Shown here piece after piece: positions 102-49,772 of a stretch of DNA of 64,000 nt. The DNA lies in IMG/VR virus record IMGVR_UViG_3300042503_002645, positions 1 through 64,000 of that record, one strand, 5' to 3'. Numbering within the stretch: the stretch's first letter is position 1; each line of letters opens with the position of its first letter. A program made the position numbers and the translations under genes. The notes under the pieces were generated by a model. It did no database searches, was not told the origin of the DNA, and was given only the letters and a program-made list of their open reading frames with translations. This stretch comes from a virus.

Positions 102-533
102 ATGCCCGCACCGAACGCCCGTTTCATCATGAACGCCGAGCAGCGCGTCTACGTGGAGAAGTCCTGGGGCCACGAGGACTGGATCTACAACGGGCGCTAC
201 TGCGGCAAGAAGCTCCATGTCAAGAAGGGAAAATCCTGCTCTTTTCACCATCACCGGGTGAAGGACGAGGTGATGTACCTCGAGTCTGGTAAAATCGTCC
301 TGACCTACGGCTGGGACGAGGATCCCGCGCACGCGGCGCAGATCACCCTGACGCCCGACATGGCGTTTCACATCCCGCCCGGCATGTGGCACCAGTTCCA
401 GGGGCTCGAAGAATCGGTGATCACGGAGTTCAGCACGCACCACTCTGACAAGGACGTAGTGCGGGCGGGCAAGGACGGCACGGAGGTCGTCGGCGATGAA
501 GAGGAAGAAGAAGGCACAGACCAGCGCCGTTAG
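102..533 (+). CDS. Cupin-fold protein (mannose-6-phosphate/sugar isomerase-like)
   Basis: Motifs VEKSWGHE..YCGKKL..CSFHHHRVKDE and HIPPGMWHQF match the cupin metal-binding motifs; AAGGA RBS upstream. Confidence 0.8.
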   Translation: MPAPNARFIMNAEQRVYVEKSWGHEDWIYNGRYCGKKLHVKKGKSCSFHHHRVKDEVMYLESGKIVLTYGWDEDPAHAAQITLTPDMAFHIPPGMWHQFQGLEESVITEFSTHHSDKDVVRAGKDGTEVVGDEEEEEGTDQRR

Positions 534-12431: not shown

Positions 12432-13724
12432 ATGCGCTCGTGGGACTTTTTCGACACGCTTCTGGGGCGCGCTTGCGGCGAGCCATGGCGTGTGTTTGAA
12501 CTGATCGGCGGCGCGGAGTTCAAGCAGCTCCGGCAGCAAGCTGAGCAGAAGAGCGACAAGTCGTACGCGGGGATCTACGCGCAGCTCAAGACGATGACCG
12601 GCTGGTCGTCGGAGAAAGTCGCCGAGCTGGCCGAGCAAGAGCTGGACTGGGAGCGCCGCCTGGCATTTCCCATTCGTGAGAACGTGAGCCAGGTCGCACC
12701 CGGCGATTACGTGATCACCGACACGTATCTCGACGCGGCCCAGGTGCGCGAACTGGCCGACCGCGTCGGTGTGCCCGCCGTGCAGATCATCGCGACTTAC
12801 GGCGGCAAGCATCACGGGACTGTCTGGCGCGATCTGCAGAAACAGCGCGCGGCGATCGTGACCCACACCGGCGACAACCGGCACGCCGACTTCGACCAGG
12901 CGCGGCGGCATCAGTTTCAGTCCGTTCACTACCGGGGCGGCGAGCTAATTGGCATAGAGAAGACGTTTGTTGTCAGCGGGCACTGGGACGTTGCTGGGCT
13001 ATCCCGCTGCGTGCGGCTCCAGAATCCGTACGCGCGGCCCGATCCGCGCGCGGCCGCGTGGAATCAGCAGGCGAACTACAACATTCCGTTCTTGCTGTTT
13101 TGCGCGGCTGAGCTGCGCAATTACATCGGGCACCAGCGGCGGCGCAAAGTGTTCTTTCTGTCGCGCGACACCTGCCTGCTGCAGCGGGTGTTTCAGGCGC
13201 TCTATCCGGACATCCCCGCTGAGACGTTCTACGCCAGCCGTCAAACCTACACCCACCCAAGCGCGCACTTTATCGAGTACGCGAAGCGCGCCGCGGAAAC
13301 ACCGGGTGCGCTGTTCGTGGATCTGCAGGGCACCGGCAAGAGCGTCAACACGTTTTCGACTGCGCAGGGCGTGTCGTTGCCGTACTTGTACTGTGCCGCG
13401 CCCGCAAAGCTGCAACTGTACTGCCCGGCGCTCTACAGGCTTTCTTACGTCGGGACGGAGCTCGAGGTCTTCAACTACGACGTGCAGGGCCGCGTGATCG
13501 ACGTGGTGAACGGGCAGCCCGTCCGAGACAAGGTCGAGTACGATGTGACGTTGGTTGAGGCGGGGCACGCGGCGGTCGATTGCCTGTTGCGGTCTCTCTT
13601 CCGCGCGCCCCAGCAGGCTGACGAAAAGCTCACCAATATGCTGTTCGCCAAGATTCGGCACCACGCGCCGCGCGGGCTACTGCAGCAGCACCAGGTCTAT
13701 CACCCCATCGTCAAGCCGAAATAG
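12432..13724 (+). CDS. HAD-like hydrolase of glycan clusters
   Basis: SWDFFDTLL.R, ITDTYL, HTGDN.HAD, FLSRD, ASR and FVDL.GTG motifs. Confidence 0.75.
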   Translation: MRSWDFFDTLLGRACGEPWRVFELIGGAEFKQLRQQAEQKSDKSYAGIYAQLKTMTGWSSEKVAELAEQELDWERRLAFPIRENVSQVAPGDYVITDTYLDAAQVRELADRVGVPAVQIIATYGGKHHGTVWRDLQKQRAAIVTHTGDNRHADFDQARRHQFQSVHYRGGELIGIEKTFVVSGHWDVAGLSRCVRLQNPYARPDPRAAAWNQQANYNIPFLLFCAAELRNYIGHQRRRKVFFLSRDTCLLQRVFQALYPDIPAETFYASRQTYTHPSAHFIEYAKRAAETPGALFVDLQGTGKSVNTFSTAQGVSLPYLYCAAPAKLQLYCPALYRLSYVGTELEVFNYDVQGRVIDVVNGQPVRDKVEYDVTLVEAGHAAVDCLLRSLFRAPQQADEKLTNMLFAKIRHHAPRGLLQQHQVYHPIVKPK

Positions 13725-13726
13725 CC

Positions 13727-14353
13727 GTGTACGCCTCGATTCCGGCCTTCTGCATCAACCTTGATACCCGGCCGGATCGGTGGGCGCAGGCCGAGGCTGA
13801 GTTTCAGCGCGTGGCGTGGCCGGTCGAGCGCTGGCCCGCGATGCGCTACGCAACCTCGCCGGTTCCCGGACTTTCGGCAGGCGCGGCTGGCTGTCTGGAA
13901 AGCCATCGGCAGCTCTGGCGGCACTGCCTGGCTGCGGGTTTCTCCGTCATGGCTGTCTTCGAGGACGACGGCGTGCTGGCGCCGCGGTTCAAAGATATCT
14001 ATTCCAGCGTGGCGGCCCAGCTACCCGCGGACTGGGAAGTCTGGCACCTGCACAGCACCCACGCCCGGACAGCGCCCGTCAGCGAGGCCATCGTGGCGTA
14101 CCGGAGCAACGGCTGGGGCTCGCACGGCTACCTGATTCGACCCAGCGCCTGCGAGAAGCTCCTGCAGCTGGACAGCGCGCAGCCGGTCGACGCGCAGCTC
14201 ACCGGCGGCCTGCTCGCGTTGGGTGGACAACCCTATGGTACGGCGCTAGGCTGCGCCCTCTGTTTGCAACGCGGCGAAGATACGGACATCCCGGTGAACT
14301 CGCAGGTCGACTATTGGCGTCGGTTGCGCGGGCGCCTTTTTGAAGGACGTTAA
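13727..14353 (+). CDS. Glycosyltransferase family 25-like
   Basis: CINL..RPDRW, GCLESH..LW, VFEDD, HGYLI and PVD motifs. Confidence 0.85.
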   Translation: MYASIPAFCINLDTRPDRWAQAEAEFQRVAWPVERWPAMRYATSPVPGLSAGAAGCLESHRQLWRHCLAAGFSVMAVFEDDGVLAPRFKDIYSSVAAQLPADWEVWHLHSTHARTAPVSEAIVAYRSNGWGSHGYLIRPSACEKLLQLDSAQPVDAQLTGGLLALGGQPYGTALGCALCLQRGEDTDIPVNSQVDYWRRLRGRLFEGR

Positions 14354-14873
14354 CGTGGCCAGGCATGAAGAAGACAAGGCGCACCGCAAACTCGTCGACG
14401 ACTGGATCCGGGGGCCGCGAGAGAGCAGCGGCGACGCGTTGATCCTGATTGCGCACCTGGGCAACATCGATGGCCAGGACGTCGAGCTCCAGAACACCCC
14501 GGCGTATCTCCAGGCAGCGCTCGCGCAGGGCTGGCACGTCTGCTGCGATGTCGTCTCCCGGCACGGCGGCTTTGCGCTGCCGACCCAGCGCGGCCTGGCG
14601 CCGATGCCGTACTCAATGCTGTCTCACGCGCGGGTCTGGTGCCGCGCAGCCGACCCCGAAACGTTCGACGCCCTGGCACAGGTCGGCGCCCACATTGTCC
14701 TCCGCGACACGAACTCCTGGTCGCCCACCAATCACGGTTATCTCTGGACACACCCCGACGCGCCCCTGACGCCGCGCTCTATCGCGGCCTACCCCGAACT
14801 TGCGGCGCCAGATTGGTTGAAATCCCGCGAAATTGCGGGAATCTGCAGCAACGAAATCGCGCGCTATCTATAA
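14340..14873 (+). CDS. Degenerate glycerophosphodiester phosphodiesterase-like phage protein
   Basis: LIAHLGNIDG...NTP.Y...AL..G..V..DV and C-terminal GICS resemble a phage GDPD-like family. The true start may be TTG at 14439. Confidence 0.5.
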   Translation: MKDVNVARHEEDKAHRKLVDDWIRGPRESSGDALILIAHLGNIDGQDVELQNTPAYLQAALAQGWHVCCDVVSRHGGFALPTQRGLAPMPYSMLSHARVWCRAADPETFDALAQVGAHIVLRDTNSWSPTNHGYLWTHPDAPLTPRSIAAYPELAAPDWLKSREIAGICSNEIARYL

Positions 14874-14901
14874 TGCGGCAGTGCCGCTGTTCTTTGACAA
14901 C

Positions 14902-15206
14902 CTTTTTGCGCCCGTCTATTGAGACGTGATAAATTGGTGTTTGCGCGTGAAAACGTGCAAATGCTGCGAGTTAGTCGTGGTGGCCGACTGGTTAGGTGCT
15001 ATTTCGGCGGCATGGATGCTTTCGGGGTAGCGGGAACCGTGGTCAGATCATGACGTGAACACGGTCGGAGGCGCGGTGAATGCCACACGGGGCGAACATA
15101 TGCCTTTGTAAGTCACCGCATTACTTCAGCTTGCTGAAGTTGGACCTGGGGGTAGGGGATCCCAGGAGCTCGCGGCACAACAATCGATTTATTTACGCGC
15201 AGAGGG
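14902..15206 (+). ncRNA. Large multibranch structured RNA / 5' leader of the holin-like gene
   Basis: Nested long-range stems (14902-14911/15197-15206, 14925-14939/15183-15197, 14962-14972/15167-15177) enclose at least six hairpins, and a GAAA-capped hairpin lies at 14940-14961. TATAAT occurs at 14869-14874. Confidence 0.6.
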
Positions 15207-15214
15207 CTGATGGG

Positions 15215-15553
15215 ATGTTTTTAGACGCAACTCATCCGCTCTGGGTATTTCTCAGCGCGTTCGGGGTGTCGTCGTTTGCCGGGCTGGCCACGTATCTCCG
15301 TTTTTCGCGTAAAATGTCGCGGCTCGGCCTGCTTAGCGCTATGCTGAATGCGGGTTGTCTCGGGCTGGCGATTTCGCTGCTCTGGTACCGGCATTTCCGG
15401 GAATCGGAGAACATTTATGGCCTCATCGGAATCTGCGTGTTCGCAGGCATGAGCGGGTCGGCGGTCACCGACGTTGTGTGGTCGATTCTTTCTGGATCCG
15501 GAATCAAGGTAAACATTACCCACGAACACAACAGGAGCAACGAAGATGAGTGA
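15215..15553 (+). CDS. Putative holin (three TM segments)
   Basis: 112 aa with three hydrophobic helices, a G..G.SG motif in TM3 and a charged C-terminal tail, typical of class I (LydA-like) holins. Confidence 0.55.
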   Translation: MFLDATHPLWVFLSAFGVSSFAGLATYLRFSRKMSRLGLLSAMLNAGCLGLAISLLWYRHFRESENIYGLIGICVFAGMSGSAVTDVVWSILSGSGIKVNITHEHNRSNEDE

Positions 15554-15695
15554 CCGAAAACTTCGCGTGACTCTGAGCGCGGCGGCTTGGTGCGCCACGC
15601 TCTTGTGGGCCCTGGCGCTGCTTTCGTCCGCTTCAGCGGTCAGTAATAGCCGCGCGGTTATGGCGTCCGAAGCAACAAGAAGCGCGCGTCCATGA
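15546..15695 (+). CDS. Small signal-peptide/membrane protein (49 aa; not in ORF track)
   Basis: AGGAG RBS; MSDRKLRVTLSAAAWCATLLWALALLSSASAVSNSRAVMASEATRSARP*. Overlaps both neighbours. Confidence 0.55.
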   Translation: MSDRKLRVTLSAAAWCATLLWALALLSSASAVSNSRAVMASEATRSARP

Positions 15696-16252
15696 CTTTT
15701 CTCACAGCCATGATGCTTGAACAACCTGCTGGAAAACGGCGCAATTTCGCGACCTGGTGGGCGTTCGCCGCCTCGGTTGCGTGCGCACTGCTGCTTTGGC
15801 ACAACGTCGCGCAGATTAACGCGCGCCAAAGCGAGATCATGAAGATCATCAACTACTCGACGGACGGAATCGTCGTCTGCGACCGGAATGGCAAGGTGCT
15901 CTTTGCCAATGACGCGACGCAGACGATTACCGGATTCAGCGAGCGCGACCTGGTTGACTCTGGCCTGGCGCAAATCATCCCGAACTACCTGCACGACAAG
16001 CATCGCCAGGGCCTCGAGCGCGCCAAAGACAAGAGCGCGCGCGGCATCGAAGGCGTCTTCTATCGAAACATCTATCCGGTCACGCGCAAGGACGGCGAAA
16101 CGATTATTTGTCTGATCAGCGTCGGTAGCGTGCTTCACTTTGGCGGCCCGCAGTTCTTCGCTTACATCACACCCGTTGCCGAGCCGACGGAAAGAAAGTC
16201 TTCCGTCAAACCTGGCGCACTGTCCAGCGTTCCGTCCTCGAGCGCGAAGTGA
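15692..16252 (+). CDS. Membrane-anchored stand-alone PAS-domain protein
   Basis: N-terminal TM, then DGIVVCDRNGKVLFANDA...ITGFS..DL....L..IIP......H and RKDG PAS signature. No kinase or other output domain. Confidence 0.85.
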   Translation: MTFLTAMMLEQPAGKRRNFATWWAFAASVACALLLWHNVAQINARQSEIMKIINYSTDGIVVCDRNGKVLFANDATQTITGFSERDLVDSGLAQIIPNYLHDKHRQGLERAKDKSARGIEGVFYRNIYPVTRKDGETIICLISVGSVLHFGGPQFFAYITPVAEPTERKSSVKPGALSSVPSSSAK

Positions 16253-16262
16253 GGTGACGGCC

Positions 16263-17993
16263 ATGGACGGCTTTTCTGTGCTTGACCCGCTGGCGTGGGA
16301 TCCGTGCGCCATTAAGTTCCACCCGGCCTATCTTGCCGGTAATACGGCAGGTTGGCTGTCGAAGAGTGGCGCTGTTACTGGCACCGACCATTACCTATCC
16401 GGGCGGCTGTACGTCTCGAAGAGTGGCTACCTGCTCCTCTCGGTGCCCAATGCCCTGGTCCGCGGCGTGTTTGACGCCATGACGGCCCCGGGCGTCGAGC
16501 TGCCCACGATGAACGCCTTCAAGGGCGAGGCGGCTGACAAAGAACTGCTCAACGCTCACATCACAGTGATGACCGATGCCGAGGTCGATAAGATCGGCCC
16601 CGACAAGATCAACGAGCGCGGACATCACTTTCACTACGCCCTGGGCCCGGTCCGCGAGTTCTCGCCCAAGACCGAGAGCCTGAGCCGCGTGTGGGCGATC
16701 CAGGTCGCCAGCCCCGAGTTGGCTGCGCTGCGCAAGAGTTACGGCCTGTCGGCGCTGCCCAACGGCGACCACCAGTTTCACATCACGGTTGCCGTGCGCC
16801 GGAAGAACGTCCTGGGCGCTAACGAAGTCGCTAAGATCGACGGCAGCCGGGGCGAGCTCAAGGCGGCAGCCGATCACACGGTGACTTACGACTGCGGGTG
16901 CTCGGGGCCGTGTTCATGCCCTGATACCTGTATTTGCAAGCAAAGCGGCCGGTGTGGTGCGGCACACAAAGCAGCAGCGACTGAAAAGCTGCCCTGGCGC
17001 GAGCGCGCTGAGGTTTACGCGCGCGACCCGAACACTGGCAAGCTGTACGGCGGCAAGTGGGACAACGACGGCTCTTTTGCCCTTCCAGGTGGCGGCATCG
17101 ACCCTGGCGAGGATCCGGCAACGGCAGCGTTGCGCGAGCTGGAAGAAGAGACCGGTATCAAAGCCACCAACGCGCGCGTGTTGCCAATTCCGGCGGTGGA
17201 TTCGCCGTGGAGTGACGCCGTTCGCGCCGAAAAAGCTAAACAAGGGCGCGGTAACTTTGCCGGTTCGCGCACGCACTTTGTTGCTGCCGACATCGTGAAC
17301 CACCCCAAACGCGATGGTCTGGACTACTGGGCCGCGAAAGACAGGGGATACTACGACCCGGCCGACGCGCTAAAGATCATGCAGGGCGTAAAGAAGTTCA
17401 ACGTGCCTAGCATTGCCAACGCGCGGATGGCCGCCATCAACCATCTCATTGCTGAAGCGTCCAAAAAGCAAGCTGCCGCGGTCAAAGACGTCCTGTCCGG
17501 CGGCGAAGCGGATCACAAGCCCGATAGCGAGTTTCCCCAGGAGGCCTTGGCAGAAGGCAAAAAGCATGAGCGAGAACACACGGACAATGCAGAAGTCGCC
17601 GAAGAAATTGCCAAGGATCACCTGTCCGAAGACCCCGCGTACTACGAAAAAGCTAAAGCCCTAGAGAAGCTCTCGAACAGCGTTTACCTGAATCAGGCGT
17701 TTCAGGCGCTCAACCCGGCGACGATCGGCGGGCTCACCCCGTACGACCCGAGCAAACCGGTCTTCGAGAACATCCACCATCAGCTCGCCGAGGCCAAAAA
17801 CCGCGGCGACTTCATCCTGCAGTCGCAGCGCAACTACCAGATGTGGCGCGCGGCTCAGGACCCGCAGTATCGTTACCAGCTTGCCATGCAGGCCGTTCGC
17901 GGCGACATGCCTCAGCCCAGCGTGTTCGATCAGGCGATTGAGCGCTACGGCGACCAGGCGGCCGCGAGCCTTGGTTTTGGACCAGGGAGGTGA
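16263..17993 (+). CDS. Multidomain protein: 2H phosphoesterase + Cys-rich knot + Nudix hydrolase + DUF5661-like domain
   Basis: Two HITV motifs (~16557, ~16779); CGCSGPCSCPDTCICK; Nudix box GGGIDPGEDPATAALRELEEETG; EGKKHEREH...IAKDHLSEDPAYY. Confidence 0.8.
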   Translation: MDGFSVLDPLAWDPCAIKFHPAYLAGNTAGWLSKSGAVTGTDHYLSGRLYVSKSGYLLLSVPNALVRGVFDAMTAPGVELPTMNAFKGEAADKELLNAHITVMTDAEVDKIGPDKINERGHHFHYALGPVREFSPKTESLSRVWAIQVASPELAALRKSYGLSALPNGDHQFHITVAVRRKNVLGANEVAKIDGSRGELKAAADHTVTYDCGCSGPCSCPDTCICKQSGRCGAAHKAAATEKLPWRERAEVYARDPNTGKLYGGKWDNDGSFALPGGGIDPGEDPATAALRELEEETGIKATNARVLPIPAVDSPWSDAVRAEKAKQGRGNFAGSRTHFVAADIVNHPKRDGLDYWAAKDRGYYDPADALKIMQGVKKFNVPSIANARMAAINHLIAEASKKQAAAVKDVLSGGEADHKPDSEFPQEALAEGKKHEREHTDNAEVAEEIAKDHLSEDPAYYEKAKALEKLSNSVYLNQAFQALNPATIGGLTPYDPSKPVFENIHHQLAEAKNRGDFILQSQRNYQMWRAAQDPQYRYQLAMQAVRGDMPQPSVFDQAIERYGDQAAASLGFGPGR

Positions 17994-28900: not shown

Positions 28901-30367
28901 CCCCACGTCTACGAGAAGTTCGTCAGCCAGCTCCGCGGCGCCGGGATCAACACCGTGCGCACCGGCACCAAGACGAACATCATGGCTATGACCGACAAGG
29001 ACGTCGATCAGCTGGCCGGTGACCGCGAGCTGCAGAACAGCGAGACGGTCGACTGGAAGGGCAAGCTGAAGCCGGTCAAAGGCGGCCTGTTCGACGAGCA
29101 GCTCACGGGCGGGCACAGCGGCAACCGCTGGAGCAAAATCACGCTCCACGAGCCGATGCCCAACCCGGTCATGGAAGAGCCGATTCGGCGCGTTCTCGGC
29201 CTGACCGAGAAGCAGTTCCGCGGCGTGCTGGCAGGCGAGGTCCATCTTTTCGATAAGACTGGCCCCGAGGCGCTCAAGGCGGCGCTGGGGCGGATCAACA
29301 TGCCCAAGGCCATCGAGCAGGCCCGGTTAGATATCAAATCGGGCCGCAAGGTGCTGCGCGACGCTGCCGTCCGGCGGCTGGGCTACCTGAAGGCCGCTGA
29401 GGCGCAGGGCGTGCATCCCGAGGACTGGATGCTCACGAAGATGCCGGTGCTTCCGCCGATGTTCCGGCCGGTGTCGCAGATGGGCGCCAGCAAGATGACG
29501 TTGGTTTCTGACGCGAACTACCTGTACAAGGAGCTGCTGGACAGCAACAACGCGCTCAAGGAAACGTCTGGCGCCTTCACCGAGTTCGGCGAAGAGCGGC
29601 TGGGTTTGTATGACGCCATGCGCGCCGTGACTGGGCTGGGTGACCCGACCCAGCCCAAGAACCAGGAACGCCGCGTCAAGGGGTTCCTCCAGCACATCTT
29701 CGGCAGCTCTCCCAAGTACGGCACGGTGCAGCGCAAGCTGCTCAGCACGACCGTTGACCTGGTTGGCCGCGCTGTAATTACGCCCAACCCCGACCTGAAC
29801 ATGGACGAGGTGGCGCTCCCCGAGGACAAGGCCTGGGACGTTTACAAGCCGTTCGTTGTGCGGGGCCTGGTGCGCCGCGGGATGCCGCGCATGAACGCAC
29901 TTGATGCCGTTGAAGGGCGCAACAAAGCGGCCATGGACGAGCTGCAGACGCAAATGTCGTCTCGGCCGATCGTTATCAACCGTGCGCCGGTGCTTCACCG
30001 ATACGGTATGATGGCCTTCTACCCGAAGCTCACCAAGAACAAGGTCATGGAGGTCAACCCGGTCATTACCAAGGGCTTTGGCGCCGATTTCGACGGTGAC
30101 GCGATGCAATATCACGTCCCCAGCACGGAAGAAGCCGCCAGGGAAGCCGCCGAAAAGATGTTGCCCAGCAAGAACCTCTTTTCGACGGCGAGCTTCAAGG
30201 CGCACTACGTTCCAAACAAGGACTATCAGGCTGGTGTGTATCTGGCCTCGAGTCGAGTCGACAAGCGGCAGAAGCCGCGGGTGTTCAAGTCCAGACAGGA
30301 CGCCATCAACGCGTATCACCGCGGCGACATTGACGTCGACACCCCGGTGCATATTGTCGATAGCTAA
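25988..30367 (+). CDS. DNA-directed RNA polymerase: beta subunit fused to the N-terminal half of beta'
   Basis: beta motifs RSVQPSHLG..TPE, LGKNLRVAY..NYEDAVVIS, GDKLTGRYGDKGVI and MKLHH. beta' motifs ETV...KP..GGLF, PVLPPMFRP, NRAPVLHR and catalytic GADFDGD (30080-30100). Confidence 0.95.
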   Translation: MPDSILSGPPVQPPTPRAFGDIGALRTGIFDRALQSASALEPVKNDLHTLQLHDVKYAGPEKFTKADQKRAILTGNSLHRRLTGTWSLLDNTTGQPIATRQTTIAHVPYLTDSGTFVNRGVEYTLAHQMRLKPGVYTREKDNGELEAHVNVLPGKGRMHRYFLDPKTGVMNINIGQAKIPLMPLLKAMGAKDSDIRAAWGNEITAVNMEKGDAGTLDKLYQRLVYKQVPGLDAPGKQQAIAAEFARMELDPDVTRRTLGKDYKNLTPEAILDITKKLIALNRKEADPDDRDAMAYQNVVGPEDLISERFTKDRQSLRKLLWRATAKKNLDHVPTGVFNKAISAALIGSGLGSSLEEINPAEIFDHQARVTRMGEGGIGSLDAVPQESRSVQPSHLGFVDFLRTPESGKVGVDMRFARGAMKGADGKIYTPVVNMKTGQSELKTPGELADMPLAFPGEDKSDMPMVAALVGGKMKYVPREEVQFSLPHMDNTFSGLSNMVPMKSYMKGHRVIMASRMFTQALPLVGAEAPLVQSAIADKDGSSYEDEMGEKLGAVRAQFHGQVVSAEPGMIVVRDREGKKHEIDLYNDMPFNRKTFWHQTPAVQPGDVFKPGQLLAHSNFTDKQGTAALGKNLRVAYLPFQGKNYEDAVVISASAAKKLSSEHMYQHEAEWDDNSRIGKKTFVSLFPTEYDKKTLENFDDKGAIQKGTVVNYGDPLILQAKTKETTYGKVHRGRAGSFSNETVTWEHHSPGVVTDVEHTDKGVQVVVKTQAEMQVGDKLTGRYGDKGVIADVIPDHQMPNDKDGNPFEILVSPLGLISRVNPAQIVEAALGKIAAKTGKPFKMKDFDSTADYVDFAQQELGKHGLSDTEDVLDPETGRKIKGVLTGNRFFMKLHHTAEAKGQGRAMGSYTAEGTPAKGGSEGAKRVGMLDLGALLSHGAGKVIRDAKMVRGQANPEYWSQFMAGYTPPLPKVPHVYEKFVSQLRGAGINTVRTGTKTNIMAMTDKDVDQLAGDRELQNSETVDWKGKLKPVKGGLFDEQLTGGHSGNRWSKITLHEPMPNPVMEEPIRRVLGLTEKQFRGVLAGEVHLFDKTGPEALKAALGRINMPKAIEQARLDIKSGRKVLRDAAVRRLGYLKAAEAQGVHPEDWMLTKMPVLPPMFRPVSQMGASKMTLVSDANYLYKELLDSNNALKETSGAFTEFGEERLGLYDAMRAVTGLGDPTQPKNQERRVKGFLQHIFGSSPKYGTVQRKLLSTTVDLVGRAVITPNPDLNMDEVALPEDKAWDVYKPFVVRGLVRRGMPRMNALDAVEGRNKAAMDELQTQMSSRPIVINRAPVLHRYGMMAFYPKLTKNKVMEVNPVITKGFGADFDGDAMQYHVPSTEEAAREAAEKMLPSKNLFSTASFKAHYVPNKDYQAGVYLASSRVDKRQKPRVFKSRQDAINAYHRGDIDVDTPVHIVDS

Positions 30368-30380
30368 ACACGGAGGTTTA
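30365..30380 (+). promoter_or_regulatory. ANGGAN-hexaloop hairpin over RBS
   Basis: TAAAC-ACGGAG-GTTTA immediately before ATG 30382. Confidence 0.6.
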
Positions 30381-30381
30381 C

Positions 30382-31110
30382 ATGTTCACGGTCAATCCCG
30401 AACTGATCGCGCTCGCCCGGCAGGCTTTTGAGAAGTCCGCCGTCGTGCCGTCGGATATGGCAATGATGGCAGCAGGCGGCGCGCCTCCGATGGGCGGCGA
30501 AGCCCCCGATCCGTCGATGCTGGGCGTCCAGGGCGCCGCGCAACCCGTGGACCCGGCCACCGCCGCGATGGGCGCTGCGCCGCCTCCCGGCAGTGATCCG
30601 ACCGGCGCGGCTACGGTCGCTGCGCCTCCGGCCCCAGCTCCGGCGCCGATGCCCCCGGCCACGCCGACCGGCGGCGCCCCAGGCCAGCAGAAGCTCAAGC
30701 CCGAGCAGATGATGCAGATGCTGGATTATCGGCTGTACAACATGCAACAGCAGCTCACCGCGATCATGAACGCGATGGGCGTCCAGGTCGCTCCCGAGTC
30801 GCTCGTCCTGCCTCCCGGCACGACCGGCGCGCCTCCGGCCGAAACGGCGCTGCCTGGCGGCCCGATGGCGCCGCCGCCCCAGGATCCAAACGCCCAGGCG
30901 GGTCCTGCAGCTCCCGGCGGTCCGCTTCCGCCGGGCGGGCCGATGGACCCCAGTCAGCCGCCCATGGATCCCAATGCCGCCAAGCAGGCGAATTGGTGGG
31001 ACCGCGTAGCCACGAAGTTCGACGAGCAGAATGGCGACGAGCCGACGGAGACGCAGATCAAGGCCGCAGCGATCGCCGCGTTGCTCCGGAGGCAAAACGG
31101 TGCGCGTTAG
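30382..31110 (+). CDS. Pro/Ala/Gly/Met-rich low-complexity virion protein inserted between the RNAP halves
   Basis: EKSA, AKQA and IKAA motifs; central helical segment QMMQMLDYRLYNMQQQL. Confidence 0.6.
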   Translation: MFTVNPELIALARQAFEKSAVVPSDMAMMAAGGAPPMGGEAPDPSMLGVQGAAQPVDPATAAMGAAPPPGSDPTGAATVAAPPAPAPAPMPPATPTGGAPGQQKLKPEQMMQMLDYRLYNMQQQLTAIMNAMGVQVAPESLVLPPGTTGAPPAETALPGGPMAPPPQDPNAQAGPAAPGGPLPPGGPMDPSQPPMDPNAAKQANWWDRVATKFDEQNGDEPTETQIKAAAIAALLRRQNGAR

Positions 31111-43145: not shown

Positions 43146-43161
43146 AAGACATGGAGGTCTT
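43146..43161 (+). promoter_or_regulatory. ANGGAN-hexaloop hairpin over RBS
   Basis: AAGAC-ATGGAG-GTCTT before ATG 43165. Confidence 0.6.
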
Positions 43162-43164
43162 AAC

Positions 43165-43713
43165 ATGGCAACTGCTCCCAATCTGATCACCGAGAAGGGG
43201 CTCGACGTCAAGAAGGGCTGGTTCCAGATGGCCGCCCTCGACTATGACGCCAAGCTCAGCTCGGCTGTCACTTTCGACGTGCCGCGCGGTCGCGTGGTCC
43301 ACGTCGATTCTTCGGGTGATTTCCGGCCCGGTGCACACAACACCGGCGTGGCGATCTTCTTGCTCAACGGCTCCGCCGAAGCGGACGTCAGCAACCCCGG
43401 CACCACGGCTTCTGGCAACTTCATGCACCGGGCCATCGCCCCGACCGGCAAGATGAGCGGCCTCGTGGCGACTGGCGGTTACGAGATTGCGTCGACCGAG
43501 TTCGACTCGGCGCGCAGCTACACCCCGGGTGATCTTCTCACCGCCGTGGCTTCGAATTCGAACGCCACGACCGGTGGTCGACTCACGAACGAGTCGGTCG
43601 AGCAGTTTGTGACGCCGGTGGTCGGTGTCGTGTCGTCCGGTAAGGCCAAGAACCACAACGGGGTCTACGCGCTGTCCTTCTGGACGGCGTGGCTCCCGGG
43701 CGCGGCCGCCTGA
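43165..43713 (+). CDS. Capsid decoration/cement protein
   Basis: Gly-rich beta protein with Y.PGD.LT....G.LT....VVGVV, directly upstream of the MCP. Confidence 0.65.
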   Translation: MATAPNLITEKGLDVKKGWFQMAALDYDAKLSSAVTFDVPRGRVVHVDSSGDFRPGAHNTGVAIFLLNGSAEADVSNPGTTASGNFMHRAIAPTGKMSGLVATGGYEIASTEFDSARSYTPGDLLTAVASNSNATTGGRLTNESVEQFVTPVVGVVSSGKAKNHNGVYALSFWTAWLPGAAA

Positions 43714-43733: not shown

Positions 43734-43749
43734 GGAACATGGAGGTTCC
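43734..43749 (+). promoter_or_regulatory. ANGGAN-hexaloop hairpin over MCP RBS
   Basis: GGAAC-ATGGAG-GTTCC before ATG 43754. Confidence 0.6.
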
Positions 43750-43753
43750 ATAA

Positions 43754-44680
43754 ATGCCCACTCAGCAAGAAATCCAGCTGCTCAACGAGACTCTCTTCGA
43801 GCAGCTCGATACCCCCGGCATGCAGAAGCAGGCCGTTGATGCAGTGAACGACTTCACGCGCACCAAGATGCGTGAAGACGGGTTCTACCGGCGGATCATG
43901 CCGCCGCTCACCATCACCAATGACGAGCTCGACCGCCAGGTCGATACCGACAAGCCGGTGAAGGTGGTCGACAAGGAACCCGATTCTCCGGCGGCCGTGT
44001 CGCTTCCGTTTGCGACGCTCCCGATCAACTTCTACATCCGTGGCCCGCGCTACCGCGTCATGTTTGACCGGATCGTGTCGCCCCGCGCTGTGAAGGACGT
44101 CGACGAGCTCCGCACCTACGTGATCGACATCCGGCAGGTCCTTTCCGACAACATGATCAAGGACATGTTGGCGGAAGAGGACTCCAAGTTCATCGCCGCA
44201 TTCAACGCCGTCCTCCCGACTCCGGGTGTGGCGAACGTTGCGTCGGGCGAAGTTCAGTACGAGGAGATCCACGGCGGCATCACGCGTGAGACGATCGTCG
44301 ACGCGCTGAAGGTCATGCCGCGGACGCCCTCGCACTTCGAGGTCGAGACCTGCCTGGTGAACAACATCACCATCAAGGAGCTGCTGAAGTTCGGCCGCGA
44401 CGAGATGGGCGGTGACTTCTCCCAGGACATCATCAAGAACGGCTGGGCGGAGACCAACTTCCTCAACTGCCGCTGGATTGTCACGATCAAGCGGAACTTG
44501 GTCCCCGACGATTCGATGTTCATGTTCGCGTCGCCGAAGTTCATCGGCAAGAACTACGAGCTCGAACCGACCACGATGTACATCCGTCGTGAGGCGTTCA
44601 TGCTCGAGTACTTCGCGTACAACACGCAGGGTGGCTCGTTCGGTCACACGAACGGTCTCGCCCGCGTCGATTTCAAGTGA
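43754..44680 (+). CDS. Major capsid protein (HK97 fold)
   Basis: 308 aa with strongly biased codon usage; R.K.RE.GF.RRI, backbone helix ending AEEDSKFI; position after protease, scaffold and decoration genes, followed by a strong hairpin. Confidence 0.75.
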   Translation: MPTQQEIQLLNETLFEQLDTPGMQKQAVDAVNDFTRTKMREDGFYRRIMPPLTITNDELDRQVDTDKPVKVVDKEPDSPAAVSLPFATLPINFYIRGPRYRVMFDRIVSPRAVKDVDELRTYVIDIRQVLSDNMIKDMLAEEDSKFIAAFNAVLPTPGVANVASGEVQYEEIHGGITRETIVDALKVMPRTPSHFEVETCLVNNITIKELLKFGRDEMGGDFSQDIIKNGWAETNFLNCRWIVTIKRNLVPDDSMFMFASPKFIGKNYELEPTTMYIRREAFMLEYFAYNTQGGSFGHTNGLARVDFK

Positions 44681-49663: not shown

Positions 49664-49753
49664 GGAAAATTCACACACCGTGTCGTGACAACTGATTTTT
49701 TTTGATCACGTTGCGTGGGTTATACTGAGCCCGTCGCACCGTTCACGACATTT

Positions 49754-49767
49754 AGGCATGGAGGCCT
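49754..49767 (+). promoter_or_regulatory. ANGGAN-hexaloop hairpin over sheath RBS
   Basis: AGGC-ATGGAG-GCCT before ATG 49773; AT-rich upstream region with TATACT at 49721-49726. Confidence 0.55.
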
Positions 49768-49772
49768 GACGC

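What the first reader, a model, noticed from the sequence alone, without database searches (positions are those of the whole stretch)
14869..15215. Unrecognised ~305-nt multibranch RNA that sequesters the RBS region of the holin-like gene
Seen: nested stems CTTTTTGCGC/GCGCAGAGGG (14902-14911/15197-15206), CGTGATAAATTGGT/ATCGATTTATTTACG, and TGCTGCGAGTT/AGCTCGCGGCA (14962-14972/15167-15177). They enclose hairpins TTTGCGCGT-GAAA-ACGTGCAAA, AGTCG/CGACT, GCTATTTCG/CGGGGTAGC (tipped by GC-ATGGAT-GC, a CsrA-type loop), ACCGTG/CACGGT, GCGGTGA/TCACCGC, ACTTCAGC/GCTGAAGT and CCTGGG/CCCAGG. Many pairs are G-U on the + strand, which favours RNA over DNA structure. TATAAT lies at 14869. I see no tRNA, tmRNA, RNase P, SRP or group I intron signatures. 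The outer stem buries AGAGGG just upstream of ATG 15215. Inference: a new ncRNA class or a cis-acting lysis-timing leader.
Basis: partly seen in the sequence, partly recalled or inferred. Interest (0 to 1): 0.8.

Follow-up and report, generated by a model that had tools for sequence, protein, structure and literature searches.

The report
New folded leader RNA, jumbo phages
The gap in front of a holin-like gene of this uncultured 200-kb lake phage encodes a real, intricately folded RNA of about 220 bases from an undescribed family, and one of its fixed loops looks like a docking site for the CsrA regulator that these phages also encode.

Summary
The + strand folds far better than shuffles (z -4.43).

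The conserved unit is shorter than claimed. It is a ~217-nt core (14962-15177): a long closing helix P1, six hairpins and a pseudoknot. In the window's subclade an extra 5' hairpin (14940-14961) precedes it.

- On 53 family members, 97.7% of pair cells are paired. 45 of 62 pairs carry compensatory changes, against 14-17 in slid controls.
- There is no Rfam 15 match.
- The RNA is single-copy and sits directly 5' of the 3-TM holin-like gene in 80 of 80 loci. The same holds when searching by the RNA alone.
- A -10-like box lies just before it.

The two outer stems, the TATAAT at 14869 and RBS burial are not conserved.

Hairpin H2 is tipped by CA(G/U)GGAUG in 52 of 53 members, which matches the CsrA consensus. 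The phage encodes a CsrA, as do 10 of 10 near-complete relatives. CsrA-type hairpins also cover several ribosome sites in the window.

Best reading: a new CsrA-linked control leader. Binding and expression are untested. This scan has noted the same family before on other genomes.

The parts
14875..14887 (+). Terminator-like hairpin just after the stop codon (14871-14873) of the upstream gene. This is context and probably not part of the RNA.
   Evidence: Listed by the consensus scan. That scan found 3 sites against 3.1 expected, so the hit is not significant on its own.
14890..14900 (+). Box A (TTCTTTGACAA). It is conserved in most clades and its function is unknown.
   Evidence: Conserved in alignments A2 and A4. 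Its distance to the -10-like box varies, from adjacent to about 55 nt. It is not enriched elsewhere in the window (14 matches against 11.4 expected).
14927..14935 (+). Extended -10-like promoter box (TG-n-TAAATT). The predicted transcript start is near 14941-14943.
   Evidence: A TAnnnT hexamer was found in 47 of 48 members. It lies 6-9 nt before P1 in 36 of the 39 members outside the subclade, and 12 nt before it in the other 3. In 8 of 9 subclade members it lies 27-28 nt before P1, ahead of the extra hairpin. Only positions 3-5 of the hexamer vary, as in sigma-70 -10 elements. The promoter reading is inference; no transcript data exist.
14940..14961 (+). Subclade-specific 5' hairpin (TTTGCGCGT-GAAA-ACGTGCAAA).
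   Evidence: Present only in the window's subclade. Compensatory changes occur at 4 of its 8 predicted pairs among 8 sequences.
14962..14972 (+). P1, 5' strand of the closing helix.
   Evidence: Helix 1: 12 pairs, 10 with changes on both sides, 97.5% of cells paired.
14973..14989 (+). H1 hairpin. Its loop bases 14980-14984 (GTGGC) form the 5' half of the pseudoknot.
   Evidence: Helix 2 is 100% paired, with 4 of 5 pairs compensatory. The pseudoknot is helix 3: 100% paired in 50 distinct rows, with 3 of 5 pairs changed on both sides. The pseudoknot was not in the model used for the alignment.
14990..14996 (+). Junction GGTTAGG, nearly invariant.
   Evidence: Invariant columns in A4 and A5.
14997..15032 (+). 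H2, a long hairpin with variable sequence. Its apical loop at 15011-15018 (CATGGATG) is the CsrA-consensus site.
   Evidence: Every one of 53 members folds this segment as a 10-18 bp hairpin. The loop reads CAGGGATG in 38, CATGGATG in 11, CATGGAAG in 2, CATGGACG in 1 and CATGATG in 1.
15037..15064 (+). H3 hairpin (CCGTGGTCAG...CACGG), highly conserved.
   Evidence: Helix 5: 97.5% paired, 3 of 8 pairs compensatory, 4 never vary.
15073..15119 (+). H4, two stacked helices around an internal loop. Bases 15082-15086 (GCCAC) form the 3' half of the pseudoknot. The ATG of the spurious ORF (15080) lies in this loop.
   Evidence: Helices 6 and 7 are 100% and 98% paired, with 6 of 7 and 5 of 6 pairs compensatory.
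15123..15140 (+). H5, a variable hairpin (ACTTCAGC/GCTGAAGT).
   Evidence: Helix 8: all 8 pairs have changes on both sides.
15145..15166 (+). H6 hairpin. Its loop holds the invariant AGGGGATC (15154-15161), a possible second GGA site.
   Evidence: Helix 9: 4 of 7 pairs compensatory. GGGGAT(C/A) is present in 52 of 53 members.
15167..15177 (+). P1, 3' strand.
   Evidence: helix 1.
15178..15214 (+). Spacer to the start codon. It holds the Shine-Dalgarno-like AGAGGG (15201-15206).
   Evidence: The spacer is 21-61 nt (median 37) in 48 members. It contains no conserved hairpin or terminator.
15215..15553 (+). 3-TM holin-like gene (112 aa), always the next gene after the RNA.
   Evidence: It follows the RNA in 80 of 80 loci. 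In the RNA-only pattern scan it follows in 79 of 85 loci; 5 more are cut by a contig end and 1 has a partial match. PHROG 6384 'holin' is matched by 9 of 20 members, best E 6.6e-5. No Pfam family reaches its cut-off.

Best explanation
**What it is.** Positions 14962-15177 encode a compact, pseudoknotted RNA domain of about 217 nt, from a family not yet described. A long closing helix P1 encloses six hairpins. The H1 loop pairs with the H4 internal loop.

**How it is made.** It is most likely transcribed from its own extended -10-type promoter (14927-14935). It then forms the 5' part of the mRNA of the holin-like 3-TM gene and the genes behind it, since only 21-61 nt without a conserved terminator separate it from that gene.

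**Proposed mechanism (inferred).** The domain displays two invariant GGA-containing loops: the H2 tip CA(G/U)GGAUG and the H6 loop AGGGGAUC. These would act as a docking platform for a CsrA dimer. The dimer could be the phage's own CsrA or the host's. CsrA occupancy would then set how much holin-like protein is made, how long the transcript lives, or both.

**Shown:** the fold, its conservation, single copy, fixed position, the loop motifs, the presence of csrA, and CsrA-type hairpins on other ribosome sites.

**Inferred:** the promoter, co-transcription, CsrA binding, and any effect on lysis.
For: **Fold**
- z -4.43 on the + strand.
- 41 of 57 RNAalifold pairs are compensatory on 52 sequences.
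- 97.7% of 3094 pair cells are paired and 45 of 62 pairs have double changes. Slid controls give 33.6-42.8% and 14-17 pairs; 0 of 500 shuffles reach the observed values.
- The pseudoknot is 100% paired with three covarying positions, although it was not in the alignment model.

**Distribution**
- New family: no Rfam match in the window or in 12 diverse relatives.
- One full copy in each of 5 genomes searched.

**Link to the gene**
- 80 of 80 loci found through the protein carry the RNA.
- 79 of 85 loci found through the RNA alone have the gene next; the other 6 are 5 contig ends and 1 partial match.
- The upstream neighbour differs between clades.

**Promoter-like box**
- 47 of 48 members, at a fixed short distance from the RNA's first helix.

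**CsrA link**
- The loop matches CA.GGA.G in 52 of 53 members.
- The SELEX consensus is RUACARGGAUGU, with GGA in a hairpin loop (passages of PMC4347634 and PMC2896534).
- A CsrA gene lies in the window's own genome (73 bits). It aligns over residues 1-52 with RsmE, PDB 2jpp (E 6.9e-9).
- CsrA is present in 13 of 20 related records, including 10 of 10 that are at least 90% complete.
- The + strand of the window has 13 ANGGAN hexaloop hairpins with stems of at least 5 bp. The - strand has 0, and shuffles give 1.8 +/- 1.3. Five of the 13 sit on ribosome sites.

**Precedent**
- E. coli CsrA represses the ColE7 lysis gene cel through a stem-loop plus the SD (abstract and passages of PMC2896534).
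Against: - No binding or expression data exist.
- A GGA lies within 20 nt of the start codon in only 10 of 48 members. Only 24 of 48 have an SD-like motif. The textbook mode, CsrA occluding the SD, is therefore not available family-wide.
- Two GGA loops need no 217-nt pseudoknotted core with dozens of invariant junction bases. Something more is probably recognised.
- The H2 and H6 loops could instead make contacts within the RNA. The H2 arm length is fairly constant (13-17 nt), which fits either view.
- All carriers belong to one phage clade. The co-occurrence with csrA is shared ancestry, not independent association.
- P1 is 12-15 bp and very stable, unlike a switching helix.
- 15 of 48 members have a U4 run just after P1. 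This would fit release of a separate RNA.
Confidence: 0.45

Rival explanations
1. It is a stand-alone stable non-coding RNA. It would be made from its own promoter and released at or after P1. It would act in trans as a decoy that titrates the phage or host CsrA, relieving CsrA-type hairpins on virion-gene ribosome sites, as CsrB and RsmZ do in bacteria.
For: - There is a promoter-like box right before the RNA.
- P1 seals both ends, which suits a stable RNA.
- A U4 run follows P1 within 16 nt in 15 of 48 members.
- It has two invariant GGA loops.
- The phage has csrA and many CsrA-type SD hairpins that would need relief.
Against: - It has only two GGA loops, whereas known sponges carry many (recalled).
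- There is no conserved terminator. The spacer to the next start codon is as short as 21 nt.
- The link to one downstream gene is absolute. A trans-acting RNA does not need that.
Confidence: 0.2
2. It is a riboswitch-like leader. The conserved junctions and pseudoknot would form a pocket for a small molecule or ion, and ligand binding would control the membrane-protein gene downstream.
For: - It has a 5' UTR position before a small membrane protein.
- It has a complex multi-helix junction with many invariant unpaired bases and a pseudoknot.
- It has a size and conservation pattern like large aptamers (recalled comparison).
Against: - No conserved expression platform or alternative pairing was found in the 21-61 nt spacer.
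- P1 is 12-15 bp and would not readily open.
- There is a single gene context in a single phage clade.
- No resemblance to any Rfam riboswitch appears even at E up to 10.
Confidence: 0.12
3. It is a structural element with no sensing role. It could be a 5' stabiliser that protects the operon mRNA from 5'-end-dependent decay. It could be a ribosome-recruiting element for a gene that often lacks an SD. Or it could be an RNA partner of the 3-TM protein itself, in the way OLE RNA works with the membrane protein encoded next to it.
For: - The 5' end is predicted to be base-paired in P1.
- Only 24 of 48 members have an SD-like motif before the 3-TM start.
- The RNA and the membrane-protein gene are never separated.
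Against: - A simple stabiliser needs only a terminal hairpin, not an invariant core.
- Nothing here tests RNA-protein contact with the 3-TM protein.
- The OLE analogy rests on recall and on titles and abstracts seen.
Confidence: 0.15
4. Outer stems (14902-14911/15197-15206 and 14925-14938/15183-15197) close a ~305-nt RNA and bury the RBS of the holin-like gene.
For: - The stems exist and form in the minimum-free-energy fold of 14869-15215.
- In the window the predicted unpaired probability of the RBS/start region is low (0.13-0.19).
- Within 8 close relatives RNAalifold keeps an outer pairing with a few one-sided changes.
Against: - Outside the subclade the 3' partner sequences are unrelated. 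The RBS region there is about half open on average (0.49 over all 48 members).
- The 5' halves coincide with box A and the -10-like box, which vary like DNA signals. They would lie upstream of the predicted start.
- From that start the RBS is still predicted to be paired, but with the first codons instead.
Confidence: 0.08

Closest known systems
CsrA/RsmA/RsmE-regulated mRNA leaders, for example the ColE7 cel lysis-gene leader (PMC2896534); glgC and hcnA are recalled examples
   Same: - A hairpin presents GGA in its loop with the flanks of the SELEX consensus. The family has CA(G/U)GGAUG, and 13 of 50 distinct rows read ACAGGGAUGU-like with an A-U closing pair.
- The site lies in the leader of a lysis-type gene.
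- A cognate CsrA protein is encoded by the same genome.
   Different: - The site sits on top of a 217-nt pseudoknotted domain, not a short leader.
- It lies about 200 nt (204 nt in the window) before the start codon.
- Most members have no GGA at the SD (10 of 48).
- The protein is phage-encoded.
CsrB/CsrC and RsmX/Y/Z sponge RNAs, and the TwoAYGGAY motif (the names of these Rfam families are recalled)
   Same: - It has GGA or AYGGAY-type hairpin loops.
- It has its own promoter-like element.
- It has possible release as a discrete RNA.
   Different: - It has only two candidate sites and no repeated modules.
- It has a rigid covarying core with a pseudoknot and no conserved terminator.
- No Rfam model of these families matches.
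Large riboswitch aptamers and ornate bacterial or phage RNAs (raiA, ROOL, GOLLD, OLE)
   Same: - It has a multi-helix junction with invariant unpaired bases and long-range pairing.
- It has a phage and lake-metagenome origin, as for GOLLD.
- It has a membrane-protein gene next door, as for OLE (recalled, plus abstracts listed).
   Different: - It is much smaller than ROOL, GOLLD or OLE.
- There is no sequence or structure match to any of them in Rfam.
- It is strictly a leader of one gene in one phage clade.
Candidate structured RNAs of IMG/VR (DNAVirus_N set, PMC10690425)
   Same: It comes from the same data source, and that study also predicted upstream cis-regulatory candidates in phages (passages read).
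   Different: Those candidates are 29-151 bases long, so none can be this whole domain. Pieces of it could be among them.

Membership tests
Any Rfam 15 family | A covariance-model match at or above the family's gathering score. | tested here: not met
   There were 0 matches in the 64-kb window. In E-value mode on 14700-15400, the only three matches scored 11-16 bits against cut-offs of 45-70. In 12 diverse relatives, nothing lay on the RNA; there were only six tRNA hits further downstream and three sub-threshold matches elsewhere. ARAGORN found no tRNA or tmRNA.
CsrA/RsmA-binding RNA | GGA in the loop of a hairpin, with flanks matching the SELEX consensus RUACARGGAUGU. | tested here: met
   The H2 tip matches CA.GGA.G in 52 of 53 members and always sits on a 10-18 bp hairpin. 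The consensus is quoted from passages of PMC4347634 and PMC2896534.
CsrA/RsmA-binding RNA | At least two sites, so that a CsrA dimer can bridge them. | tested here: inconclusive
   A second invariant GGA-containing loop (H6, GGGGAT(C/A)) is present in 52 of 53 members. It departs from the consensus by an extra G. Its geometry relative to H2 is unknown.
CsrA/RsmA-regulated leader (translational repression) | [quoted passage not shown] | tested here: not met
   GGA lies within the last 20 nt plus start codon in 10 of 48 members. These include the window itself (GGGATG at the start).
CsrA/RsmA-binding RNA | A cognate CsrA protein is available in the same system. | tested here: met
   PF02599 scores 73.3 bits in the window's own genome. 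It is found in 13 of 20 related records and in 10 of 10 that are at least 90% complete. The protein aligns with RsmE, PDB 2jpp, at E 6.9e-9.
CsrA/RsmA-binding RNA | Physical binding and a regulatory effect. | not testable with these tools
   No RNA-protein docking tool or experiment was available. No RNA-seq run is on record for this DNA.
CsrB/RsmZ-type sponge | Many repeated GGA hairpins and a transcript of its own with a terminator. | tested here: not met
   There are two candidate loops only. There is no conserved terminator. A U4 run follows P1 in 15 of 48 members.
Riboswitch | A conserved aptamer plus an expression platform with mutually exclusive pairing. | tested here: inconclusive
   An aptamer-like conserved core is present. 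No conserved alternative pairing was found in the spacer. Ligand binding is not testable here.
Protein-coding extension of the 3-TM gene (ORF 15080-15553) | An open in-frame extension with a start codon, conserved among relatives. | tested here: not met
   Only 9 of 48 relatives have an in-frame upstream ATG at least 30 codons back. Substitutions in this stretch follow base-pairing, not codons.

The most novel reading that the evidence does not exclude
The RNA is the first viral RNA partner of a virus-encoded CsrA, and it is more than a docking site. Its invariant pseudoknotted core would sense a second input, such as a metabolite, an ion or another phage protein. That input would gate display of the two GGA loops. 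The phage would then combine cell state and CsrA level to decide when the holin-like protein and the 2H-phosphoesterase operon behind it are made. This would be a new fold and a new type of RNA-protein lysis clock.
Probability: 0.25. Interest if true: 0.88.

Novelty: new variant of a known kind. Interest (0 to 1): 0.72.

Why it matters
**Why phage CsrA matters.** Phage-encoded CsrA homologues are known, but their role is open. [quoted passage not shown] It found a plaque-size defect on knock-down of one homologue.

**What this RNA offers.**
- It is a conserved, single-copy, highly structured RNA carrying a consensus CsrA site.
- It lies in front of a lysis-type gene, in phages that all encode CsrA.
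- It is therefore a concrete, testable candidate target or antagonist.

**Value independent of CsrA.** A 217-nt pseudoknotted RNA is a new family for RNA structure and function work. It has 45 covarying pairs and dozens of invariant junction bases. It also marks a large clade of uncultured ~200-kb freshwater phages.

**If it times lysis.** It would then be an RNA-based layer of holin control, different from the antiholin and dual-start systems (recalled).

Tried and rejected
**Known RNA classes.**
- Rfam found nothing on the RNA, either at gathering score or in E-value mode.
- ARAGORN found nothing.

**GenBank phages.**
- blastn of the RNA found no match.
- blastn of 4 kb around it found no match.
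- tblastn of the 3-TM protein found no match.
- The RNA-polymerase piece finds only relatives at 24-25% identity among the ten listed; all 19 records are under 60%.

**Pattern scans.** A 19-base core pattern was scanned.
- Viral contigs gave 11 stretches.
- Of 13 metagenome stretches, 3 carry the whole RNA. Two of those are the same contigs as IMG/VR records, judged by length.
- Of 12 stretches in bacterial and archaeal genomes, 0 carry the RNA.
- That pattern fits only the window's subclade, so absence from cellular genomes is weakly tested.

**Expression.** No RNA holder is listed for this DNA. The five runs holding it or part of it are DNA, and I did not lay reads.

**Tests that proved uninformative.**
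- Counting CANGGANG in the window gave 62 matches against 39 expected. I reject this as evidence because the matches follow codon usage on the coding strand.
- Box A as a repeated promoter motif: not enriched.
- The two-hexamer sigma-70 scan found no promoter in 13500-17000. The -10-like box lacks a -35 partner at 16-18 nt.
- H2 arm length as a test between an outward-pointing loop and an internal contact: 13-17 nt, inconclusive.
- An alternative 10-bp pairing of the H2 tip with the P1 3' strand was noted earlier in the scan for one relative. By eye I could see it only in the L066/L011 type, not in the window. I made no count.

**Rejected readings.**
- The ORF from 15080 is rejected.
- TATAAT at 14869 is rejected as a promoter.

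**Literature.**
- Five searches listed no paper describing this RNA. I judged them from titles and abstracts.
- I read passages of PMC10690425, PMC11879866, PMC4347634 and PMC2896534.
- I searched PMC7824862 for CsrA and got 0 hits.
- Supplements of PMC10690425 were closed. They could hold fragments of this RNA.

Full report
**Setting.** The window is the first 64 kb of a 119-kb virus record rated 58% complete. GC content is about 62% and almost all long ORFs lie on the + strand.

The finding lies in the gap between two genes:
- a 177-aa gene ending at 14873 (it hits only a PHROG of unknown function);
- a 112-aa three-helix membrane protein starting at 15215.

Behind that gene come a 49-aa ORF, a membrane-anchored PAS protein and a 2H-phosphoesterase/NUDIX polyprotein.

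**Observation.**
- Region 14869-15215 folds on the + strand at -140.4 kcal/mol. 100 dinucleotide-preserving shuffles gave -119.2 +/- 4.8 (z -4.43, none as good).
- The - strand reaches only -107.5 kcal/mol (z -3.42).
- Rfam 15 gives no match at gathering score anywhere in the window.
- With permissive settings it gives only three chance-level matches in 14700-15400.
- ARAGORN finds no tRNA or tmRNA.

**Relatives.**
- GenBank phages hold nothing similar at the DNA level.
- They hold no relative of the membrane protein.
- The closest cultured phages share only 24-25% identity in an RNA-polymerase piece among the ten listed.
- In IMG/VR the membrane protein first brought 9 loci whose upstream gap is 74-87% identical to the window.
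- The protein has 188 homologues at E <= 0.001 in the large protein collection, many on contigs of about 200 kb.
I therefore aligned 20 homologues and scanned IMG/VR with the alignment. 91 stretches encode a relative, and the best 80 were kept.
- An HMM of the gap found the element directly upstream of the gene in 80 of 80 loci.
- These give 51 distinct sequences besides the window.
- A later scan used a degenerate pattern taken from the RNA alone. It found 96 stretches.
- In the 85 loci it added, the RNA is followed by the 3-TM gene in 79. It is cut by a contig end in 5. In 1 the protein match starts at residue 60.
- The upstream neighbour changes between clades. A homologue of the 177-aa gene was found in 49 of 80 loci.
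- A 2H/NUDIX homologue lies downstream in 78 of 80 loci, and a PAS homologue in only 9 of 80.

So the RNA travels with the genes behind it, not with the gene in front.

**Structure.** The conserved unit runs from 14962 to 15177. In the window its parts are:

| Element | Coordinates | Note |
|---|---|---|
| P1 | 14962-14972 with 15167-15177 | longer in many relatives, up to about 15 bp |
| H1 | 14973-14989 | |
| Junction GGTTAGG | 14990-14996 | invariant |
| H2 | 14997-15032 | long hairpin |
| H3 | 15037-15064 | |
| H4 | 15073-15119 | two-part helix |
| H5 | 15123-15140 | variable hairpin |
| H6 | 15145-15166 | |

- On 52 sequences RNAalifold predicts 57 pairs, 41 of them with compensatory changes.
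- I built a covariance model. It matches all 53 members at 160-235 bits.
- It finds one full-length copy in each of five genomes searched, plus one 16-bit chance-level hit.
- On the model-based alignment I counted my structure, including a pseudoknot the model did not contain.
- 97.7% of 3094 cells form standard pairs.
- 45 of 62 pairs have changes on both sides.
- 0 of 500 column shuffles reach the observed values.
- Sliding the partners by 1-3 columns gives 33.6-42.8% paired and 14-17 such pairs.
- The alignment is fitted to the nested helices, which favours them. This does not apply to the pseudoknot.
- The pseudoknot joins the H1 loop (14980-14984) to the H4 internal loop (15082-15086).
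- All five of its pairs are standard in all 53 members. Three covary: U-A/C-G/U-G, G-C/A-U/G-U and C-G/U-A/U-G.
- H2 was not alignable column by column, but every member folds it as a hairpin of 10-18 pairs with unrelated stem sequences.
- The hairpin at 14940-14961 exists only in the window's subclade and covaries there.

**Ends of the RNA.**
- A TAnnnT hexamer was found in 47 of 48 members with an aligned start codon.
- By my count, about 35 of the 48 have TG two bases before the hexamer.
- It lies 6-9 nt before the first P1 base in 36 of the 39 members outside the subclade, and 12 nt before it in the other 3.
- In 8 of 9 subclade members it lies 27-28 nt before P1, just ahead of the extra hairpin.
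- Only the middle positions vary (TAAAAT, TATAAT, TAAACT, TACAAT, TAGAAT). This is how sigma-70 -10 elements vary.
- I read it as an extended -10 promoter. In the window it is 14927-14935, which puts the start near 14941-14943.
- This is inference. The simple two-hexamer scan finds no promoter because there is no -35 partner at the right spacing.
- The conserved box A (14890-14900) contains TTGACA, but its distance to the -10 box varies from adjacent to about 55 nt. It is not repeated elsewhere in the window. It stays unexplained.
- After P1 there are 21-61 nt (median 37) to the start codon, with no conserved hairpin.
- With spacers this short, the 3-TM gene must be transcribed through the RNA, unless P1 itself terminates.
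- 15 of 48 members have a U4 run within 16 nt after P1.

- The two outer stems pair sequences around box A and the -10-like box with the region just before the start codon.
- Among eight close relatives RNAalifold keeps part of this pairing, but almost without compensatory change.
- In the other clades the 3' partner is unrelated.
- The predicted unpaired probability of positions -14 to +3 averages 0.49 from the inferred start and 0.42 for read-through transcripts, over 48 members.
- It is low in most of the window's GC-rich subclade: window 0.19 and 0.13.
- From the inferred start the window's RBS is predicted to pair with codons 7-10 instead.
- RBS burial may therefore be real in this subclade, but it is not what the family conserves.
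- TATAAT at 14869 is Leu-stop of the upstream gene. It reads TTGTAA in close relatives.
- The ORF from 15080 is not conserved. Only 9 of 48 relatives have an in-frame ATG at least 30 codons upstream.

**The CsrA lead.**
- The H2 tip reads CAGGGATG in 38, CATGGATG in 11, CATGGAAG in 2, CATGGACG in 1 and CATGATG in 1 of 53 members.
- The SELEX consensus for CsrA is RUACARGGAUGU, with GGA in a hairpin loop (passages of PMC4347634 and PMC2896534).
- The H6 loop keeps GGGGAT(C/A) in 52 of 53 members.
- Searching the window's own genome with Pfam CsrA gave a 73-bit match at 88533-88679 of the record, outside the window.
- That match is a 64-aa ORF. It aligns over residues 1-52 with RsmE of PDB 2jpp (E 6.9e-9).
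- Of 20 related records, 13 have a CsrA gene. These include 10 of 10 rated at least 90% complete. The 7 without are all fragments of 52-82%.
- Following a lead from earlier notes of this scan, I looked for CsrA-type hairpins elsewhere in the window.
- ANGGAN hexaloops on stems of at least 5 bp occur 13 times on the + strand and 0 times on the - strand.
- Dinucleotide shuffles give 1.8 +/- 1.3, with a maximum of 6.
- Five of the 13 lie exactly on the ribosome sites of the genes starting at 496, 30382, 43165, 43754 and 49773. Their loops are ACGGAG or ATGGAG, closed by C-G.
- So this phage seems to use CsrA-type recognition widely, and the H2 loop belongs to the same motif class.
- A precedent exists for CsrA controlling a lysis gene: cel of ColE7 (PMC2896534, abstract and passages).
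- Phage CsrA homologues are known, but their role was described in 2025 as previously untested (PMC11879866, passages).

**Limits of that reading.**
- GGA lies near the start codon in only 10 of 48 members, and an SD-like motif in only 24 of 48. Classical SD occlusion cannot be the general mode.
- Two loops do not explain a 217-nt pseudoknotted core with many invariant junction bases.
- All carriers are one clade, so co-occurrence with csrA is not independent evidence.
- No RNA run holds this DNA, so expression is unknown.
- The 3-TM protein is only weakly holin-like. PHROG 6384 'holin' is matched by 9 of 20 members, best E 6.6e-5.
- Its nearest Atlas clusters carry Phage_holin_3 families at scores of 0.90-0.91, which is a lead only.
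- No Pfam family reaches its cut-off.

**Comparison and novelty.**
- The RNA works most like a CsrA-bound leader or decoy, but it fails the SD-overlap and multi-site features of those classes. It matches no Rfam family.
- The closest published resource, the IMG/VR candidate set of PMC10690425, holds candidates of 29-151 bases. It cannot contain the whole domain, and I could not open its supplements.
- Five literature searches listed no description of this RNA.
- Earlier notes of this same scan describe what is clearly the same family on other genomes, with the same CsrA idea. They are AI notes, not independent evidence.
- I had reached the CsrA result before reading them. I took from them only the lead to test ribosome-site hairpins.

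**Verdict.**
- This is a real, new RNA family.
- The best current reading is a CsrA-linked control leader of the holin-like operon (confidence 0.45).
- The rivals are a stand-alone decoy RNA, a riboswitch-type sensor and a purely structural element.

Noticed in passing
window 480-497, 30365-30384, 43146-43167, 43734-43756, 49752-49775 (+ strand): Small hairpins with ACGGAG or ATGGAG hexaloops closed by C-G sit exactly on the ribosome sites of five genes. In all, 13 such ANGGAN hairpins lie on the + strand and 0 on the - strand, against 1.8 expected from shuffles. This suggests a phage-wide CsrA-type translational regulon.
   Followed up: partly
G000:C1:88533-88679 (+), outside the window; locus L127 1498-1692: The phage encodes a 64-aa CsrA homologue (Pfam 73 bits; aligns with RsmE of PDB 2jpp). 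It is also present in 10 of 10 near-complete related genomes.
   Followed up: partly
L061 2993-3066, L062 2996-3068, L114 2985-3058, L125 2922-2994, L109 3032-3103, L095 2990-3062: A tRNA-Asn(GTT) gene follows the 3-TM gene in 6 of 9 relatives checked. The window has the 49-aa ORF and the PAS gene there, and no tRNA.
   Followed up: no
window 14890-14900: Box A (TTCTTTGACAA) is conserved in most clades just after the upstream stop codon. Its distance from the -10-like box varies, and it is not repeated elsewhere in the window. Its function is unknown.
   Followed up: partly
window 15178-15214 and the equivalent spacers in relatives: A GUAA(A/G)U-like motif occurs in the spacer of 23 of 48 members, 11-32 nt before the start codon. 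It resembles the invariant G-AAGU of the H4 internal loop. Only 24 of 48 members have an SD-like motif.
   Followed up: no
window 16140-17993 and loci L047-L126 at about 3072: A homologue of the 2H-phosphoesterase/NUDIX polyprotein lies downstream of the RNA and 3-TM gene in 78 of 80 loci. The PAS protein is there in only 9 of 80. The conserved unit is therefore RNA, 3-TM gene, a variable insert, then the 2H/NUDIX gene.
   Followed up: partly
window 14869-14874: The TATAAT is made of the last sense codon and the stop codon of the upstream gene. It is not conserved in close relatives.
   Followed up: yes
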